Positions 6,335 through 53,803 of a stretch of DNA of 64,000 bases are shown here, in pieces. Origin of the DNA: Escherichia coli phage NG_A1; the sequence record LC788705.1. The stretch is one strand, 5' to 3'. Position numbers and translations under genes: made by a program. Within the stretch, counting starts at the first letter, position 1. Every line of letters begins with the position of its first letter. The notes beneath the pieces are model-generated. The model saw only the letters and a list, made by a program, of their open reading frames with translations, searched no databases and had not been told where the DNA came from.

Positions 6335-7240
6335 GTGGCAGCAAATACATCATGGAGTGTTATTAACGCTGATAAAACAACCCCCGATTCAGGTGTTGTT
6401 GTTTCTGGTGGTAGTGTTAAATCTGAATATAAATCTCCCAGTGCAAGTGTAACAGCGGAACTAAAATCAAGTAAAGTAATTAATGGTGCATGGGGTGTTA
6501 GCTTAACTATAACAGATGATAGAGGGATCCCTGTAAGCATTAAGTATGACAGTAATGGTCAGTTTTCAACATCTCATAGGCCATCTGGAGTCGGTACTGG
6601 GAGTTCCTATACTCATTGCGCTTATCGCGCGCCAGACTGGTGGAATAACACAGCATATAGTGCCTTCGTACCAATTCTTGGAGGTGGTAGCGGTAATTCA
6701 CTAAAGAACTATAGATCTTTTGCTTGTTTTGGACAAATATCTTATCCTGATTCTAGTAATAGTTATCCTAGAGCTGCAATTGCTCAAGTAAGGGATTGGG
6801 CACTACCAGATGGTGAACAAGGTAACGGCAAGAGTATTACCGTGTTTACGTTTATTGATAATTCATTTGACCTTCAATATGGGTACAACGATGGTTCGCT
6901 AAACTATATTTTTTCAAAATCTCCAATTTGTGATGAAAGATTAAAGAAAAATATTGAATCCATTGATACTAATATTGCAATAAGTAATATTAAGCAGATG
7001 TCATATAAATCATACATCTATAAAAATGACGAGAATGAACAGGTGCGCCGTGGTTTTATAGCTCAGGATTTACAGAAAATAGATCCCCAATATGTACGGG
7101 AATATGGAGATCCTGGAAGAGAGAAAACGTTGGCCATTGATGAAAACGTTATGTTGCTTGATTCAGTTGCTGCGGTTAAGTGGCTTATTAATAAAGTTGA
7201 GGAGTTGCAAGAAGAAATAAATGTATTGAAAGCTAAGTAA
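6335..7240 (+). CDS. Tail fibre C-terminal part with intramolecular chaperone / autoproteolytic (S74-like) domain; reading frame open from 6071
   Basis: C-terminus DERLKKNIESI...GFIAQDLQKIDPQYV matches the intramolecular chaperone domain of phage fibres; coding-like conserved sequence upstream of first ATG. Confidence 0.55.
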   Translation: MAANTSWSVINADKTTPDSGVVVSGGSVKSEYKSPSASVTAELKSSKVINGAWGVSLTITDDRGIPVSIKYDSNGQFSTSHRPSGVGTGSSYTHCAYRAPDWWNNTAYSAFVPILGGGSGNSLKNYRSFACFGQISYPDSSNSYPRAAIAQVRDWALPDGEQGNGKSITVFTFIDNSFDLQYGYNDGSLNYIFSKSPICDERLKKNIESIDTNIAISNIKQMSYKSYIYKNDENEQVRRGFIAQDLQKIDPQYVREYGDPGREKTLAIDENVMLLDSVAAVKWLINKVEELQEEINVLKAK

Positions 7241-7243
7241 AAG

Positions 7244-7277
7244 AAAACCCCAGAGGGATATCCCTCTGGGGTTTATT
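7244..7277. terminator. Bidirectional rho-independent terminator between convergent tail and dUTPase genes
   Basis: 10-bp perfect stem CCCCAGAGGG/CCCTCTGGGG with ATAT loop, flanked by A-run upstream and T-run downstream. Confidence 0.8.
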
Positions 7278-7301
7278 ATTATTATTTATTTGATACGTAG
7301 A

Positions 7302-25857: not shown

Positions 25858-25888
25858 ATTTAAACTCCTCTCTCAAATTTATGAATCT

Positions 25889-25917
25889 ATTATACAGAAA
25901 AATTTTCCTGAAAGCAA
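25889..25917 (-). promoter_or_regulatory. Early promoter
   Basis: Minus-strand TTGCTT-N17-TATAAT plus conserved AAATTTGAGAGAGG leader. Confidence 0.65.
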
Positions 25918-25925
25918 ATAAATTT

Positions 25926-26384
25926 TTAATTTGGATAGAGTTCGGACTTAAAATTAGCCCTAACTTTTTTAGCCTCTTCTATAGTATTGCACTGCTGGTA
26001 CTTACGAATAGACCCTTTCTGCATTAGCACACAGTATTTATCGCCCCTCATGTAGATATTAGGCTCGCCCAACTTATTGTCTTTACGTACATTAATATTG
26101 TGCATTTGCTTAGATCTATTGGAGTCTTCTAAATTCTCTATAAAGTTGCAATCTTTAATCCTGTTTTTGTGGTCTATCTCTTCTGGTATATACCCCTTAT
26201 GATATAAGAATACCAGCTGATGCTCTCCCCAGTGCCTACGCTTAAACCCTATTCTTATATACCCTTTATGTTTACCCCCGGCAAACTTACCTACTAGACT
26301 CTTCTGTCTTGTTTTCTTCCATTTAAGATGGCCTGTTTCAGGATCATACTCAAAAGCCTCCCTAACCTCTTCCTGTGTTATCAT
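25926..26384 (-). CDS. HNH homing endonuclease
   Basis: HNH motif (EEIDHKNRIKDCNFIENL...SNRSKQ). Confidence 0.75.
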   Translation of the reverse strand: MITQEEVREAFEYDPETGHLKWKKTRQKSLVGKFAGGKHKGYIRIGFKRRHWGEHQLVFLYHKGYIPEEIDHKNRIKDCNFIENLEDSNRSKQMHNINVRKDNKLGEPNIYMRGDKYCVLMQKGSIRKYQQCNTIEEAKKVRANFKSELYPN

Positions 26385-39480: not shown

Positions 39481-39490
39481 TAAAAACAAG

Positions 39491-39515
39491 GAGATCTTCG
39501 GGTCTCCTTTTTCTT
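39491..39515 (+). terminator. Rho-independent terminator after nrdA
   Basis: GGAGATC-TTCG-GGTCTCC hairpin followed by TTTTTCTTT. Confidence 0.75.
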
Positions 39516-39526
39516 TGAAATTTTAC

Positions 39527-39555
39527 TTGCTAATCGCTACCAGATTTGCTATAAT
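39527..39555 (+). promoter_or_regulatory. Early promoter (nrdB-frd-thyA)
   Basis: TTGCTA-N17-TATAAT. Confidence 0.65.
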
Positions 39556-39586
39556 ATTCCTGAAATAGTGAGAAAGAGGAAAATCA

Positions 39587-40732: not shown

Positions 40733-41262
40733 TTACAGCAATGTATGCAGTTGGGCCGAATGGGGAGTTCGGCCTCCGCGGTAAACTTCCATGGGGTTCC
40801 TTCAAAGAAGAACTAGATGCTTTCTATTCTCAACTGGACGTGTTGAATCCAGATAACATCATCATTGGTGCGGGTACTTATTTAGCTCTTCCATATGCCG
40901 TTAGGGAACGTATGATTGGAGCTTCTGACCTATTTATTCGTGCTGATCGTCCATTGCCAGACGATATTACACATGATATTTACACTCCCATATCAATGAT
41001 AGGTGATACATTACCTACCTTTCTAAAAGATCAACAAACAGTAGTTCTAGGCGGAGCTAATCTTCTTCTAGAAATGTACCAACATGGGCATATAGAAAGT
41101 GCTTTTGTATCTACAATCTTTAGCGAACAGAAGCTAGAGGCAGATATACACCTAGATAGTATGATACTGGATTATAACTATGAATCCACCCGATTAGTCT
41201 ATGCAGTTGGCGCAAACAGTGATAACAGCCTGCGATTTGTACAGGAATTGGTTACTTATTAA
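40729..41262 (+). CDS. frd: Dihydrofolate reductase
   Basis: 177 aa; N-terminal DHFR-like pattern (MYAVGPNGEFGLRGKLPW); position between nrdB and thyA; ATGA overlap with nrdB. Confidence 0.6.
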   Translation: MITAMYAVGPNGEFGLRGKLPWGSFKEELDAFYSQLDVLNPDNIIIGAGTYLALPYAVRERMIGASDLFIRADRPLPDDITHDIYTPISMIGDTLPTFLKDQQTVVLGGANLLLEMYQHGHIESAFVSTIFSEQKLEADIHLDSMILDYNYESTRLVYAVGANSDNSLRFVQELVTY

Positions 41263-42101
41263 TGCAACAATACTTAAAAATTTTGACAGATGTAATTTTA
41301 CTAGGTGAACCCCGTAATGACCGTACAGGAACAGGCACAGTTTCAATTTTTGATTCCTATGCTAAGTTCGACCTACGTGAAGGGTTCCCGGCTGTAACTA
41401 CTAAACGCCTGGCCTGGAAATCAGTAGTAGGAGAACTTTTATGGTTCTTGTCTGGTTCCACAAATCTTCATGATCTACGTGTATTCACATTTGGTCGTGA
41501 CGAAGGACAGTGGACTATCTGGACTCCAAATTATGAAGACCAAGCTATAAGTATGGGTTATGATAAGGGTAATCTAGGACCAGTATATGGTAAACAGTGG
41601 CGCAACTTTGGTGGGCGAGATCAGATTCTAGAACTTATTGAAGGACTCAAGAATAATCCTCATGGCCGCAGACATCTAGTTTCTGCATGGAACGTAGCTG
41701 AACTTGATAAAATGGCATTACCACCCTGTCACTACGGCTTCCAGTGCTATGTAAGTAACGATGGATACTTAGATCTTAAATGGACACAACGCTCTGTGGA
41801 TTGTTTCCTCGGTTTACCTTTCAATATTGCTAGTTATGCTTTATTAACACATATATTAGCAAAACTGACAGGATTAAAACCTCGTTATCTTATCTTTAGT
41901 GGCGGTGATACTCATATCTATAATGACCACATGGAACAGGTAGAAGAACAGGTAAAACGCAAGCCACGCCCTCTGCCAACTCTAGTAATGCCAGAGTTTG
42001 TAGATCTCTACGATTTACTGGAGAATAATACTGTAGCTTGGTCATTCCATTTAGAGGGGTACGATCCTCACCCAGCTCTTAAAGCTAAGATGTCTTCTTA
42101 A
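41262..42101 (+). CDS. thyA: Thymidylate synthase
   Basis: Active-site PPCH..FQCYV, DCFLGLPFNIASYALL, GDTHIY motifs. Confidence 0.9.
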   Translation: MQQYLKILTDVILLGEPRNDRTGTGTVSIFDSYAKFDLREGFPAVTTKRLAWKSVVGELLWFLSGSTNLHDLRVFTFGRDEGQWTIWTPNYEDQAISMGYDKGNLGPVYGKQWRNFGGRDQILELIEGLKNNPHGRRHLVSAWNVAELDKMALPPCHYGFQCYVSNDGYLDLKWTQRSVDCFLGLPFNIASYALLTHILAKLTGLKPRYLIFSGGDTHIYNDHMEQVEEQVKRKPRPLPTLVMPEFVDLYDLLENNTVAWSFHLEGYDPHPALKAKMSS

Positions 42102-42103
42102 TT

Positions 42104-42128
42104 TAAATAGCCCTTCGGGGCTATTATA
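42104..42128 (+). terminator. Rho-independent terminator after thyA
   Basis: TAGCCC-TTCG-GGGCTA hairpin followed by T-rich tract. Confidence 0.7.
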
Positions 42129-42165
42129 TTTGAAATTGTACTTGCTTATTAAGTACAATTTCAAA
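42129..42165. repeat. Perfect 15-bp inverted repeat overlapping promoter -35
   Basis: TTTGAAATTGTACTT-GCTTATT-AAGTACAATTTCAAA; the TTGCTT -35 lies in the loop, TATAAT just downstream. Confidence 0.8.
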
Positions 42166-42171
42166 TATAAT
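42142..42171 (+). promoter_or_regulatory. Early promoter embedded in palindrome
   Basis: TTGCTT-N18-TATAAT. Confidence 0.55.
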
Positions 42172-42200
42172 ATACTCAATAAGTACAAAAGGATAATAAA

Positions 42201-42584
42201 ATGAGTAAAGAAATTGAATTAGAACAAGCCCTTCTGAATTACTCCAATTACTTGCAGGGTGATAAAGAAACTATTACTAAGGAACAGGTATTACTAATAC
42301 TAGACTCTATCACTTCTAAATTCAGGACTTTAGAAGACTACTACTCTGTAGGCAATGGAGATGAGAAGATAGAGTTATGTCTAAATCTCCTAGAAGATAT
42401 GGGCTGGAATGTGGAAGATCAAGTAGGATATTTAGGTATATCTACAGAAATTCTAGAAAATACAGAGCATGAAAATATACTTGAAGTAAAGAGCAGAAGT
42501 GCTATTCGGTATAATACTTATGGTACAGGTATTACAGGAATAAAAGCATTACTTAGTATAGATATAGGATGGTTAGATGAATAA
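42201..42584 (+). CDS. Hypothetical protein
   Basis: 127-aa ORF with RBS AAAGGA. Confidence 0.5.
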   Translation: MSKEIELEQALLNYSNYLQGDKETITKEQVLLILDSITSKFRTLEDYYSVGNGDEKIELCLNLLEDMGWNVEDQVGYLGISTEILENTEHENILEVKSRSAIRYNTYGTGITGIKALLSIDIGWLDE

Positions 42585-43125
42585 AAAGTTACCTAGCCAA
42601 GAAAGATTAAAAGAATTATTAATCTATGATCCAGATACCGGTATATTTACTAATAAGGTAAGTCGTGGTAGGGGAGGAAAAGCAGGTTCACCCGCTGGAT
42701 ACCTAAGAAAAGATGGCTATATAACTATTAAGATAGATAAAATAGATTATTTAGCACATAGACTAGCCTTTCTATACATGACAGGATCAATACCAGATTT
42801 AATAGACCACAAAAATAGGATTAGGTCAGATAATAGGTGGATAAACCTAAGAGAAGCTACAAGCCAGTCTAATAATAGAAACTGTACCGCATCGAGTAAA
42901 TCTGGATATCTAGGTGTACACTGGAACAAACAACTACAGAAATGGCAAGTACAGGTGATTGATAATAAGGGTAAAAATATTTATGGGGGTGTTTTTGACT
43001 ACTTAGACCTAGAAAGTGCGGTCATAAAGGCTAATGAACTGAGAAAAACACTTCATGGTAGCGAAGCAGTTATAGAAGATTTCTATACTAACTATTACCC
43101 ACCAGTAGAGGAACTTAATAAGTGA
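42577..43125 (+). CDS. HNH homing endonuclease with AP2-like domain
   Basis: HNH motif (DLIDHKNRIRSDNRWINLR...QSNNRN), YLGVHW segment; paralog of 18566-19087. Confidence 0.8.
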   Translation: MNKKLPSQERLKELLIYDPDTGIFTNKVSRGRGGKAGSPAGYLRKDGYITIKIDKIDYLAHRLAFLYMTGSIPDLIDHKNRIRSDNRWINLREATSQSNNRNCTASSKSGYLGVHWNKQLQKWQVQVIDNKGKNIYGGVFDYLDLESAVIKANELRKTLHGSEAVIEDFYTNYYPPVEELNK

Positions 43126-43598
43126 GCGTTTTCCACATTTACACAGATGGTGCTTGTAAGTCTAACCCAGGTCCAGGTGCTTGGGGATTTATTGTCTATG
43201 ATGATAACGATGATCGTTTAGGTTCTAAATCTGGATATAGTCCTAAAACTACAAATAATGAGATGGAACTCACGGCTATTGTAGAGGCTCTACGTTGGTC
43301 AGTTAAAAAAGATAATAGACCAATTGTTATCTATACTGATTCTGCTTATTGCAAAAATGGTATGGAAAGTTGGATGTTTTCTTGGCAAAGGAAAGGCTGG
43401 AAGAAAGCAGATGGTGAAGTTCCTCTTAATCTAGAACTTTGGCAGGAAGCATTTAAATTAACACAACAGTATATCAACTTTCATAATACTAATCCTACCT
43501 TTATTAAGGTTAAAGGACATTCTGGTATTAGTGGTAATGAAGCTGTAGACGCCTTATGTAACACAGTTATTACTGAAGCTGAAATGGCTGAGATGTGA
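43122..43598 (+). CDS. rnh: Ribonuclease H
   Basis: RNase HI motifs (IYTDGACKSNPGPGAWG, ELTAIVEAL, IYTDSAY, GHSG...NE.VD). Confidence 0.85.
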   Translation: MSVFHIYTDGACKSNPGPGAWGFIVYDDNDDRLGSKSGYSPKTTNNEMELTAIVEALRWSVKKDNRPIVIYTDSAYCKNGMESWMFSWQRKGWKKADGEVPLNLELWQEAFKLTQQYINFHNTNPTFIKVKGHSGISGNEAVDALCNTVITEAEMAEM

Positions 43599-47228: not shown

Positions 47229-47546
47229 ATGACTTTTCATATTTTGATTGATGATGTGCGTAATCTTCATGGAATGGACATTATCATTCGAACCCCAGAA
47301 GCCGCTGTCGAGTTTCTGAATAAAACTGATACCACAGGCCACTTTGTTTATATGGATAATGACTTGGCTGTAGATGGTATGGAAGGTTATCAAATTCTTC
47401 GTTTACTCTTAGAATTTGGGCAGAGACCAAAGAAAGTGGTACTAGTAACCTCGAATCCCGTAGCTAAGCAAACTATGCGTAATGATTTGCTTGACTTAGG
47501 GTATAAAGAAAATCCCAATCGTGTCGAATATGATTGGCAGGAGTAA
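47229..47546 (+). CDS. Hypothetical protein
   Basis: 105-aa ORF. Confidence 0.5.
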   Translation: MTFHILIDDVRNLHGMDIIIRTPEAAVEFLNKTDTTGHFVYMDNDLAVDGMEGYQILRLLLEFGQRPKKVVLVTSNPVAKQTMRNDLLDLGYKENPNRVEYDWQE

Positions 47547-53744: not shown

Positions 53745-53773
53745 TTGCTAAACCTCTCTTTTCTTGTTATAAT
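53745..53773 (+). promoter_or_regulatory. Early promoter
   Basis: TTGCTA-N17-TATAAT. Confidence 0.65.
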
Positions 53774-53803
53774 ATTTATATAAATTGATGAGAGAGGTTT
53801 GAA

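What the first reader, a model, noticed from the sequence alone, without database searches (positions are those of the whole stretch)
42129..42165. Perfect 15-bp palindrome enclosing a promoter -35 element just after the thyA terminator
TTTGAAATTGTACTT-GCTTATT-AAGTACAATTTCAAA is a perfect inverted repeat with the TTGCTT -35 hexamer in its loop and TATAAT just downstream. It could be an operator for a dimeric regulator, a second terminator hairpin, or a cruciform-prone site; none of the other copies of this promoter family carry such a palindrome.
Basis: seen in the sequence. Interest (0 to 1): 0.45.

Follow-up and report, generated by a model that had tools for sequence, protein, structure and literature searches.

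The report
Conserved hairpin wrapped around T5 promoter
Just after the thymidylate synthase gene of this T5-like phage, one early promoter lies inside a perfect 22-base-pair inverted repeat whose pairing, not its sequence, is kept across relatives, so a hairpin or cruciform is being maintained; its function is untested.

Summary
The palindrome is real and larger than reported. Its arms are 42122-42143 and 42151-42172: 22 perfect pairs around a 7-nt loop. Block shuffles of the window never gave more than 14.

The window is a T5-like phage (Tequintavirus). The repeat encloses a PN25-type early promoter (-35 TTGCTT, 18-nt spacer, -10 TATAAT) directly after the thyA terminator hairpin. Only this one of the 20 family promoters in the window folds.

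The same cassette occurs in 59 fetched relatives from two genera, in 23 sequence versions. All keep at least 18 pairs. Pairing survives four or five double (compensatory) substitutions and a matched 1-nt deletion in both arms. The half-site sequence changes and is not repeated elsewhere. This argues for a nucleic-acid structure, not a protein operator.

Best guess (about 0.4): a composite terminator-promoter cassette, like the T4-type PeSLs. The hairpin would form in RNA that reads through the weak thyA terminator.

Rivals:
- a palindrome that maintains itself by template switching;
- a cruciform that gates the promoter.

Database records label the same 50-75 bp "promoter" (T5, BF23) or "terminator" (Shivani, Lindwurm). 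I found no experiments on it.

The parts
41262..42101 (+). thyA (thymidylate synthase), the last gene of the nrdB-frd-thy block upstream of the cassette
   Evidence: ORF. Pfam PF00303, E = 1.5e-93. 100% amino-acid identity to T5 thy.
42106..42125 (+). thyA intrinsic-terminator hairpin: stem AATAGCCC / loop TTCG / GGGCTATT. Its T-tract (ATATTTGA, 4 T of 8) is weak and forms part of the palindrome's left arm.
   Evidence: Sequence. RNA fold. Nearly invariant in relatives, with RNA-type covariation (GTAGCCGC/GCGGCTAC in L014). ARNold-predicted terminator in the BF23 record. Not called by the consensus scan because the T-tract is weak.
42122..42143 (.). Left arm of the inverted repeat (TATTATATTTGAAATTGTACTT). 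It covers about -59 to -38 of the promoter. Its inner half is the A/T block typical of this promoter family upstream of the -35.
   Evidence: Family comparison.
42144..42150 (.). 7-nt loop GCTTATT (last four bases of the -35 plus the start of the spacer)
42151..42172 (.). Right arm (AAGTACAATTTCAAATATAATA): the rest of the promoter spacer plus the -10 hexamer
42142..42147 (+). -35 hexamer TTGCTT (T5 PN25-type)
   Evidence: Family scan. The exact PN25 promoter at 25917(-) has the same hexamer.
42166..42171 (+). -10 hexamer TATAAT, 18 nt after the -35. The transcription start is inferred near 42178.
   Evidence: The homologous stretch is annotated 'promoter' in T5 NC_005859 (46937-47011) and in BF23. 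The start site is inferred, not mapped.
42123..42128 (-). Mirror-image TATAAT on the minus strand, created by the symmetry. With TTAATA 18 nt upstream it makes a promoter-like match pointing back into the terminator.
   Evidence: minus-strand match 42152..42123, 10 of 12.
42201..42584 (+). orf127, first gene served by the promoter in this window. Function unknown; present in only some relatives.
   Evidence: No Pfam hit. PHROG 26840, unknown function. Absent in T5 and in most B-type relatives.
42577..43125 (+). HNH homing endonuclease (called hegE in BF23), part of the variable insert between the cassette and rnh
   Evidence: Pfam HNH_3, E = 9.6e-14. PHROG 99. BF23 annotation.
43122..43598 (+). 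rnh (RNase H), the conserved gene downstream of the variable region. In T5 it follows the cassette directly.
   Evidence: Pfam RNase_H, E = 2e-32. T5 layout.

Best explanation
The element is a composite terminator-promoter cassette of T5-like phages. As double-stranded DNA, the 51 bp are an early sigma-70 promoter of the PN25 family (-35 TTGCTT, 18-nt spacer, -10 TATAAT) that drives the variable genes before rnh. In addition, the spacer and -10 have been kept complementary to the A/T-rich block upstream of the -35. The thyA terminator has a weak U-tract, so some RNA polymerases read through it. Their transcript would fold into a 20-22 bp A-U-rich hairpin stacked directly on the terminator hairpin. 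I propose that this RNA hairpin is the selected feature. It would act as a second-tier attenuator, or as a 3'-end or processing structure, that insulates the downstream module from the heavily transcribed nrdB-frd-thy block. This is the role shown for the stem-loops embedded in T4-type PeSL promoters. The conserved cassette would also serve as a homology patch where alternative upstream and downstream gene modules are exchanged. Shown here: the repeat, its uniqueness among 20 family promoters, the conservation of pairing with compensatory changes, the predicted fold, and the module reassortment. Inferred: promoter activity, read-through of the terminator, that the hairpin forms in RNA rather than DNA, and any effect on termination or stability.
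For: (1) Pairing, not sequence, is conserved. There are 23 distinct versions in 59 relatives from Tequintavirus and Epseptimavirus, all 49 or 51 nt long and all keeping at least 18 of about 22 pairs. (2) Of paired cells, 97.7% are standard pairs, against 93.8 +/- 0.6 in shuffles (0 of 500 reach it) and 37-49% when partners are slid. The covariation score is 0.186 against 0.114 +/- 0.009 (0 of 500). Four pairs changed on both sides (8/44, 11/41, 17/35, 18/34), and a fifth (20/32) went C-G to T-A via T.G. (3) B-type cassettes lost one nucleotide in each arm relative to A and C types, at mirrored positions. (4) Intermediates are seen: T5 has G.T where L010 has A-T; L006 has T.G where L014 has T-A; BF23 has T.G where JNwz02 has C-G. 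(5) On the mRNA-sense strand there are 35 G.U-type cells against 6 on the other strand. (6) The predicted RNA has the terminator hairpin followed, with no unpaired base between, by a 20-bp hairpin: -33.6 kcal/mol, z = -7.7. (7) The thyA terminator has only 4 T in the 8 nt after its stem and is missed by the consensus scan. (8) In 38 of 59 relatives the hairpin is followed by 5-6 T in 8 nt, and two GenBank records annotate this 50-51 bp as a terminator. (9) Precedent: PeSL cassettes of T4-type phages place stem-loops between or over the -35 and -10 boxes. Those stem-loops terminate transcription in reporter assays and flank shuffled ORFs (PMC2839356). (10) Palindrome types A, B and C reassort with at least 4 upstream and at least 5 downstream sequence contexts.
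Against: In this window the hairpin lacks a U-tract (TACTCAAT, 3 T of 8). Its stem base is all A-U and it has only 3 G-C pairs, so it is a poor intrinsic terminator here. The T-rich tail in other relatives is also simply the family's usual initial transcribed sequence. The strand bias is weak when counted as independent events: about 12 G.T-type against about 6 A.C-type, P = 0.05-0.12. Hairpin-templated mutation could produce the compensatory changes without any selection. A canonical terminator already precedes the hairpin. There are no transcript-end data for any T5-like phage at this site. PeSL stems are G/C-rich and multi-copy, whereas this one is A/T-rich and single-copy.
Confidence: 0.4

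Rival explanations
1. Self-maintaining quasipalindrome with no selected function. An inverted duplication once copied the promoter's upstream block into its loosely constrained spacer. Since then, intramolecular template switching during replication ('quasipalindrome correction') has copied changes from one arm into the other. The cassette is carried along because it is a recombination junction.
For: Template switching in quasipalindromes is an established mutational mechanism in E. coli and phage T4 (established knowledge). It yields exactly the events seen here: complementary substitutions and matched indels. Both left-arm variants look like ordinary family upstream blocks (AAAATTYAY before the -35), as if the spacer simply follows the upstream arm. 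EC148 has lost the 15-nt hairpin tip, including the -35, which is the kind of event hairpin DNA provokes. The strand bias expected for an RNA structure is not significant by events. Only one such element exists in 64 kb, or in the first 45 kb of T5.
Against: The palindrome persists in every full-length cassette examined, across two genera and about 430 GenBank records with the cassette. In A/C-type versions like this window's it holds the promoter away from family norms, with an 18-nt spacer; it also lacks the TTCTG or TGn spacer end. The same genomes keep the nrdB promoter cassette almost invariant without any palindrome. Non-Watson-Crick cells lean strongly to G.T on the sense strand (35 against 6), which mutation alone does not predict: the background is 48% wobble-making transitions.
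Confidence: 0.28
2. DNA-level structural switch. Under negative supercoiling the A/T-rich repeat extrudes as a cruciform, or forms a hairpin on one unwound strand. That places the -35 in a loop and the -10 in a stem and shuts this one early promoter off, so its activity depends on template topology.
For: The symmetry axis lies within the -35/spacer region, and the arms span about -59 to -6, the entire RNA polymerase contact region. The arms are perfect and A/T-rich with a short loop. The DNA hairpin is -18 kcal/mol, z = -10.6. Loss of the hairpin tip in EC148 suggests the DNA hairpin can form in vivo. An engineered cruciform-controlled E. coli promoter is known (Horwitz and Loeb 1988, from memory). 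Covariation fits any base-paired structure.
Against: A cruciform needs both strands to pair, yet most natural mismatches are G.T on one strand and therefore A.C on the other. T5 virion DNA is nicked, and its topology in vivo is unknown. There is no evidence that this promoter is regulated differently from the other 19.
Confidence: 0.15
3. Operator for a dimeric phage or host DNA-binding protein that covers and represses (or activates) this promoter.
For: A perfect dyad centred on a promoter is the classical operator layout. The outer 10 bp of each arm are nearly invariant.
Against: The inner half-site differs at 4 of 15 positions between A and B/C types, and the spacing of the outer blocks changes by 2 bp (49 against 51 nt), while complementarity is kept. 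Even the outer block shows a compensated T-A to C-G change (JNwz02). No other copy of the half-site stands above chance in 64 kb. The outer block's invariance is explained by the -10 hexamer plus its mirror. At 51 bp the dyad is far longer than typical operators. The adjacent genes are variable.
Confidence: 0.07
4. Back-to-back divergent promoters. The symmetry creates a second -10 on the minus strand (42128..42123), so the element also fires a short antisense transcript into the thyA terminator and 3' end.
For: The consensus scan finds minus-strand matches TTAATA-18-TATAAT (42152..42123) and TTGAAA-18-TACAAT (42164..42135), each 10 of 12. Promoter bidirectionality arising from sequence symmetry is known in bacteria (Warman et al. 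2021, from memory).
Against: The loop is asymmetric, so the family -35 TTGCTT exists only on the plus strand. The TTGAAA/TACAAT pair is absent from B and C types. The inferred minus-strand start would fall inside the terminator hairpin. All genes in this region are on the plus strand. Promoter-like matches here are no more frequent than in shuffles (20 against 19.8).
Confidence: 0.05

Closest known systems
PeSL (promoter-early stem-loop) cassettes of T4-type phages (Arbiol et al. 2010, PMC2839356; Comeau et al. 2014, PMC4122927)
   Same: Both are strong sigma-70-type early promoters with an A/T-rich upstream block and a stem-loop overlapping the -35 and/or -10 boxes. Both lie in the short gap between the stop codon of one gene and the RBS of the next. 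Both flank interchangeable non-essential ORFs, with G-T pairs tolerated in the stems. In PeSLs the stem-loop was shown to terminate transcription and the cassettes to mediate module shuffling.
   Different: PeSL stems are short and G/C-rich (polyG/polyC) and occur in dozens of copies per genome. Here the stem is 22 bp, almost purely A/T, and spans the whole promoter. It is single-copy (1 of 20 family promoters) and is preceded by a separate canonical terminator. The phage family is different (Demerecviridae). No functional test exists.
T5 early promoter family (PN25, PH207 and others)
   Same: -35 TTGCTT, -10 TATAAT, and an A/T block AAATTGTAC just upstream of the -35. The site is annotated as a promoter in T5 NC_005859 and in BF23.
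   Different: The spacer is 18 nt instead of 17 (A and C types). The spacer does not end in TTCTG or TGn. In this window the conserved +1 to +15 box (CATAAATTGA) is missing. The spacer and -10 are the reverse complement of the upstream block.
Intrinsic (Rho-independent) terminators and tandem terminators
   Same: A stable hairpin with a 7-nt loop directly after a gene. In most relatives a T-rich tract follows it. Annotated as a terminator in phages Shivani and Lindwurm.
   Different: The stem is A-U-rich with an all-A-U base. There is no U-tract in this window. The stem is far longer than usual (22 bp against 5-12 bp). The consensus scan does not call it.
Supercoil-dependent cruciform promoters and quasipalindrome mutation hot spots (engineered and mutational systems, from memory)
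   Same: A perfect A/T-rich dyad that includes promoter hexamers. The arms evolve in concert.
   Different: Those systems are engineered or mutational. A natural, phylogenetically conserved case in a phage promoter has not, to my knowledge, been described. Nothing here shows that extrusion occurs.

Membership tests
T5 PN25-type early sigma-70 promoter | -35 TTGCTW and -10 TATAAT | tested here: met
   TTGCTT at 42142-42147 and TATAAT at 42166-42171. These are the same hexamers as in the exact PN25 copy at 25917(-).
T5 PN25-type early sigma-70 promoter | 17-nt spacer | tested here: not met
   The spacer is 18 nt in the window and in A/C-type relatives, and 17 nt in B-type relatives. 18 of the 20 family promoters in the window have 17 nt.
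T5 PN25-type early sigma-70 promoter | A/T-rich block (AAAATTYAY) directly upstream of the -35 | tested here: met
   GAAATTGTAC precedes the -35, matching neighbours such as 39527 (GAAATTTTAC).
T5 PN25-type early sigma-70 promoter | Conserved initial transcribed box (ATWTTCATAAATTGA) | tested here: not met
   The window has ATACTCAATAAGTAC. T5- and B-type relatives carry ATATTTTAYWWATTG-like sequences.
T5 PN25-type early sigma-70 promoter | Mapped transcription start / RNA polymerase binding | not testable with these tools
   Only computational 'promoter' annotations exist, in the T5 and BF23 records.
Intrinsic terminator | G/C-rich stem of 5-12 bp | tested here: not met
   The stem is 22 bp with only 3 G-C pairs. 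Its outer 10 pairs, the base of the stem, are all A-T.
Intrinsic terminator | U-tract immediately 3' of the stem (at least 5 T in 8) | tested here: not met
   The window has TACTCAAT, 3 T of 8. The criterion is met in 38 of 59 relatives (TATTTTAT or TATTTTAC). The site is not listed by the terminator scan.
PeSL-like composite promoter/stem-loop cassette | Sigma-70-type early promoter with a stem-loop overlapping its -35/-10 boxes, lying between a stop codon and the next RBS | tested here: met
   PeSL definition from PMC2839356.
PeSL-like composite promoter/stem-loop cassette | Sits at boundaries of interchangeable ORFs (module shuffling) | tested here: met
   The same cassette follows T5-type thyA, a second thyA type, a small membrane-protein gene, or a homing endonuclease. 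It precedes orf127+HNH, rnh, a 93-aa ORF, an MGLF... ORF, or a protease gene. Palindrome types reassort with these contexts.
PeSL-like composite promoter/stem-loop cassette | Many copies of the motif, stem-loop included, per genome | tested here: not met
   Terminator-then-promoter cassettes recur, but the promoter-embedded hairpin is unique: 1 of 20 promoters. No other inverted repeat has arms longer than 15 in the first 45 kb of T5.
PeSL-like composite promoter/stem-loop cassette | The stem-loop terminates or attenuates upstream transcription | not testable with these tools
   This needs reporter or Term-seq experiments.
Operator of a dimeric DNA-binding regulator | Half-site sequence conserved among relatives | tested here: not met
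   4 of the 15 inner positions differ between A and B/C types, and there is a matched 1-nt deletion, while complementarity is kept.
Operator of a dimeric DNA-binding regulator | Further sites, or a linked regulator gene | tested here: not met
   The half-site gives 6 matches against 3.8 +/- 2.0 expected. The flanking genes vary, and orf127 has no known domain.
Known RNA family (Rfam 15) | Match at the gathering threshold | tested here: not met
   Only generic hairpin (miRNA-precursor) matches, far below their thresholds.
T5 site-specific nick | Consensus Pu-pGCGC | tested here: not met
   The consensus is quoted in the T5 record. There is no GCGC in 42100-42180.
RNase III substrate | About two turns (at least 20 bp) of uninterrupted dsRNA | tested here: inconclusive
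   A 20-22 bp perfect stem is predicted. Cleavage cannot be tested here, and no literature links T5 mRNA to RNase III.

The most novel reading that the evidence does not exclude
The palindrome is a natural DNA-structure switch. On relaxed, nicked, freshly injected T5-type DNA the promoter is in ordinary B-form and active. Once the template is ligated and negatively supercoiled, by gyrase or by the wake of its own strong transcription, the A/T-rich 22-bp arms extrude as a cruciform. The cruciform hides the -35 in a loop and the -10 in a stem, and so times or limits expression of the module before rnh. That would make it a conserved natural counterpart of the engineered cruciform-controlled promoter.
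Probability: 0.12. Interest if true: 0.75.

Novelty: new variant of a known kind. Interest (0 to 1): 0.45.

Why it matters
T5 early promoters are textbook strong promoters and standard expression tools. Yet one member of the family is wrapped in a hairpin-forming repeat that is conserved by covariation. Current genome records call the same bases a promoter in some phages and a terminator in others. If the hairpin acts in RNA, it extends the PeSL idea to a second, unrelated family of virulent phages. In that idea, promoter and terminator are fused into one portable cassette that insulates and shuffles accessory genes. If it acts in DNA, it would be a rare natural example of a promoter gated by cruciform extrusion. 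If neither holds, it is a clean natural case of a palindrome that maintains itself by templated mutation. All three outcomes can be tested with a handful of arm-scrambled and compensatory constructs.

Tried and rejected
1. Second copies. The BLAST table showed '2 places per record' for relatives. This is the palindrome matching itself on the other strand, as in the self-BLAST. There is no second copy.

2. A regulon of half-sites. TTTGAAATTGTAC with up to 2 mismatches gives 6 matches against 3.8 expected. The matches other than the two arms are ordinary promoter upstream blocks or chance hits.

3. A family-wide tendency of T5 promoters to fold. Rejected: 19 of 20 have z between -1.8 and +1.6.

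4. A known RNA family. Rfam gives only sub-threshold generic hairpin matches.

5. A T5 nick site. The consensus Pu-pGCGC is absent.

6. More distant phages with thyA (L018-L031, about 50% identity). None has a comparable repeat within 500 nt downstream of thyA.

7. A pattern scan of bacterial genomes returned only chance matches. The metagenome scan returned 120 stretches, of which 6 were true T5-like cassettes.

8. Strand asymmetry as a decisive RNA-versus-DNA test. It is strong by cells (35 against 6) but not significant by independent events (about 12 against 6, P = 0.05-0.12). The background in 3.3 kb of upstream coding DNA is 48% wobble-making transitions.

9. The EC148 tip deletion as a stable natural variant. 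Only EC148 itself carries it among 371 matching records, so it is a singleton and could even be an assembly artefact.

10. Literature. Five full-text searches found no description of this element. The BF23 genome paper does not mention it. A 2026 preprint on promoter-terminator coupling was listed but could not be opened.

11. orf127 as a cognate regulator. It has no domain, and it is absent from most genomes that keep the palindrome.

Full report
**What is in the sequence.** The window is a T5-like phage. A 2-kb stretch around the finding is 96-97% identical to Salmonella phage VSe12 and other Tequintavirus genomes. The thymidylate synthase protein is identical to that of T5. An exact copy of the classic T5 PN25 promoter lies at 25917 on the minus strand.

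The gene order around the finding is nrdB, frd, thyA (41262-42101), the intergenic cassette, orf127 (42201-42584), an HNH homing endonuclease (42577-43125), and rnh (43122-43598).

The reported 15-bp palindrome is present as described. It is the core of a perfect 22-bp inverted repeat with arms 42122-42143 and 42151-42172 and a 7-nt loop. It is the longest inverted repeat in the 64 kb. In 200 block-wise shuffles the longest perfect arm averaged 10.3 and never exceeded 14.

**Anatomy.** Directly after the thyA stop codon comes a G/C-rich hairpin with a TTCG loop (42106-42125). It is a normal-looking intrinsic terminator with a poor T-tract: ATATTTGA, 4 T of 8. The last 4 nt of its 3' stem are the first 4 nt of the palindrome's left arm.

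The -35 hexamer TTGCTT (42142-42147) straddles the end of the left arm and the loop. The right arm is the remainder of an 18-nt spacer plus the -10 TATAAT (42166-42171). The repeat therefore spans roughly -59 to -6 of the promoter. It also places a mirror TATAAT on the minus strand at 42128..42123.

As RNA, the region folds into the terminator hairpin followed, with no unpaired base between, by a 20-bp hairpin (-33.6 kcal/mol, z = -7.7). As single-stranded DNA the 22-bp hairpin is -18 kcal/mol (z = -10.6).

**Relation to the promoter family.** The window holds 20 promoters of the type TTGCTW-N16-18-TATAAT. The inner half of the left arm (GAAATTGTAC before the -35) is the ordinary A/T block of this family; 39527 has GAAATTTTAC and 35927 has AAAATTATAC.

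What is unusual is the spacer. It is the reverse complement of the upstream block, it is 18 rather than 17 nt long, and it lacks the common TTCTG or TGn ending. In this window the usual CATAAATTGA box after the -10 is also missing.

Folding the -59 to -6 stretch of all 20 promoters gives -24.1 kcal/mol (z = -8.4) for this one. The other 19 have z between -1.8 and +1.6. The half-site is not enriched elsewhere either.

**Relatives.** I collected the cassette from the following sources:
- IMG/VR;
- JGI metagenomes;
- GenBank phages, including T5, BF23, EPS7, phiR2-01, Shivani, Lindwurm, EC148 and others.

This gave 59 sequences and 23 distinct versions. BLAST finds the cassette in about 430 GenBank records, essentially all Tequintavirus and Epseptimavirus genomes.

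Every full-length version is 49 or 51 nt long and keeps at least 18 of about 22 pairs. There are three sequence types:
- A: window and T5, TTTGAAATTGTAC, 18-nt spacer.
- C: BF23, TTTAAAATTTCAT, 18-nt spacer.
- B: the majority, TTTAAATTTCAT, 17-nt spacer.

A and C differ at four inner positions of each arm. Three of these are full complementary double changes, including a G-C to T-A transversion. B has lost one nucleotide in each arm at mirrored positions.

Single-pair compensations have also arisen separately, and intermediates exist:
- G-C to A-T in L010, with the G.T intermediate in T5.
- C-G to T-A in L014, with T.G in L006.
- C-G to T-A in phiR2-01.
- T-A to C-G in JNwz02, with T.G in BF23 and C.A in AKM_HA2021_32.

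On the alignment, 97.7% of cells form standard pairs, against 93.8 +/- 0.6% in shuffles and 37-49% when partners are slid. The covariation score is 0.186 against 0.114 +/- 0.009, with 0 of 500 shuffles reaching it. MAFFT hides four mismatched cells; my own count includes them.

By contrast, the nrdB promoter cassette in the same genomes is almost invariant and has no palindrome. What is preserved here is therefore complementarity, not sequence.

**What this excludes.** Chance and simple neutral drift are excluded. A sequence-specific operator is unlikely:
- the half-site changes and the spacing changes by 2 bp;
- there are no other sites above chance;
- there is no conserved linked regulator.

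The near-invariance of the outer 10 bp is explained by the -10 hexamer and its mirror. The element is not a known Rfam family, and it is not a T5 nick site, whose consensus is Pu-pGCGC.

**RNA or DNA, selection or mechanism.**
- *Strand bias by cells.* On the mRNA-sense strand, 35 non-Watson-Crick cells are G.T-type. Only 6 would be G.T-type on the other strand.
- *Strand bias by events.* Counted as independent events, this is about 12 against 6 (P = 0.05-0.12). The background is 48% wobble-making transitions in the neighbouring coding DNA. This is a trend in favour of a sense-strand (RNA) structure, not proof.
- *Templated mutation.* Hairpin-templated mutation (quasipalindrome correction) is an established mechanism and would also produce complementary substitutions and matched indels without selection.
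- *EC148.* This phage has lost exactly the 15-nt hairpin tip including the -35, leaving a 34-nt perfect palindrome. That hints the DNA hairpin can form. However, it is a singleton among 371 matching records.

**Context.** The cassette is an island between interchangeable modules.

Upstream it follows any of:
- T5-type thyA;
- a second thyA type;
- a small membrane-protein gene;
- a homing endonuclease.

Downstream it precedes any of:
- orf127 plus HNH;
- rnh directly (T5);
- a 93-aa ORF;
- an MGLF... ORF;
- a protease gene.

Palindrome types A, B and C reassort with these contexts. The break to variable sequence falls right after TATAATATA. The same is true at the nrdB promoter.

After the hairpin, 38 of 59 relatives have 5-6 T in 8 nt, while the window has 3. 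GenBank annotators label the same 50-75 bp 'promoter' in T5 and BF23 and 'terminator' in Shivani and Lindwurm. No paper I could search describes it.

**Closest known.** The PeSL cassettes of T4-type phages are the nearest described kind. They are strong early promoters with stem-loops placed between or over the -35 and -10 boxes. They have been shown to terminate upstream transcription, to flank ORFans and to mediate module shuffling (PMC2839356; PMC4122927).

The T5 element shares the layout and the genomic role. It differs in several respects:
- it is A/T-rich;
- it is 22 bp long and embraces the whole promoter;
- it is single-copy;
- it is preceded by a separate canonical terminator;
- it lies in a different phage family.

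I therefore file it as working like a PeSL, not as a member of that family.

**Verdict.** The element is real, non-random and evolutionarily maintained as a base-paired structure superimposed on an early promoter.

| Explanation | Confidence |
|---|---|
| Composite terminator-promoter cassette; the hairpin acts in read-through RNA as a back-up attenuator or 3'-end structure, and the cassette serves as a recombination linker | about 0.4 |
| Palindrome that maintains itself by templated mutation, with no function | about 0.28 |
| Supercoil-driven cruciform that gates the promoter | about 0.15 |
| Protein operator | about 0.07 |
| Divergent antisense promoter | about 0.05 |

None of these can be settled without transcript-end mapping and arm-scramble/compensation constructs. 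Novelty: a new variant of a known kind. Interest: moderate (0.45).

Noticed in passing
window 25860-25950 (minus strand): An exact copy of the classic T5 PN25 promoter (TTGCTT-TCAGGAAAATTTTTCTG-TATAAT-AGATTCATAAATTTGAGAGAGGAG). It is one of 20 promoters of this family in the window.
   Followed up: partly
window 53750-53800: A 22-nt imperfect (77%) inverted repeat centred on the -10 of the family promoter at 53745. It pairs the spacer with the initial transcribed region and RBS (AAACCTCTCTTTTCTTGTTATA / TATAAATTGATGAGAGAGGTTT). Its fold over -59 to -6 is not significant.
   Followed up: no
window 42150-42158 and 42180-42188: A 9-nt direct repeat, TAAGTACAA, occurs in the right arm and again in the leader of orf127. 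In read-through RNA the left arm could therefore pair with either copy. BF23 has the same leader with a different (C-type) palindrome, so this is probably a relic of how the A-type arm arose.
   Followed up: partly
window 39488-39560 and loci L003, L010, L012, L014: At the nrdB promoter, too, the sequence common to all relatives ends right after TATAATAT. T5 and three other genomes continue with a different module there. The -10 hexamers of these cassettes thus look like general break points for module exchange.
   Followed up: partly
L221 (Escherichia phage EC148, NC_106721), about 47,230-47,270: The 15-nt tip of the hairpin, including the -35, is missing. This leaves a loop-less perfect 34-nt palindrome, TATTATATTTAAATTTC|GAAATTTAAATATAATA. 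Only this record has it among 371 matches, so it is either a recent hairpin-tip deletion or an assembly artefact.
   Followed up: yes
window 42106-42125 and relatives L014, L015, L017, L222: The thyA terminator hairpin itself shows RNA-type evolution. L015, L017 and L222 have GTAGCCC/GGGCTAT with a G.U pair. L014 has the fully compensated GTAGCCGC/GCGGCTAC, which forces a C.A mismatch at position 3 of the overlapping palindrome.
   Followed up: partly
GenBank records NC_005859, OR083247, NC_028754, OK143207: The same homologous 50-75 bp is annotated 'promoter' in T5 and BF23 and 'terminator' in Shivani and Lindwurm. All of these are computational predictions.
   Followed up: yes
GenBank PP892525 (vB_EcoS_I14) and MG065642 (Campylobacter phage A148): Both records carry this T5-type cassette. 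I14 is filed under Felixounavirus. A148 is an UNVERIFIED 'Campylobacter' phage with Epseptimavirus sequence. Both look like mislabelled or contaminated records.
   Followed up: no
window 7238-7281: A 22-nt, 86% complementary, G/C-containing palindrome with no loop (TAAAAGAAAACCCCAGAGGGAT/ATCCCTCTGGGGTTTATTATTA). It is flanked by A- and T-runs on both sides, so it looks like a bidirectional terminator.
   Followed up: no
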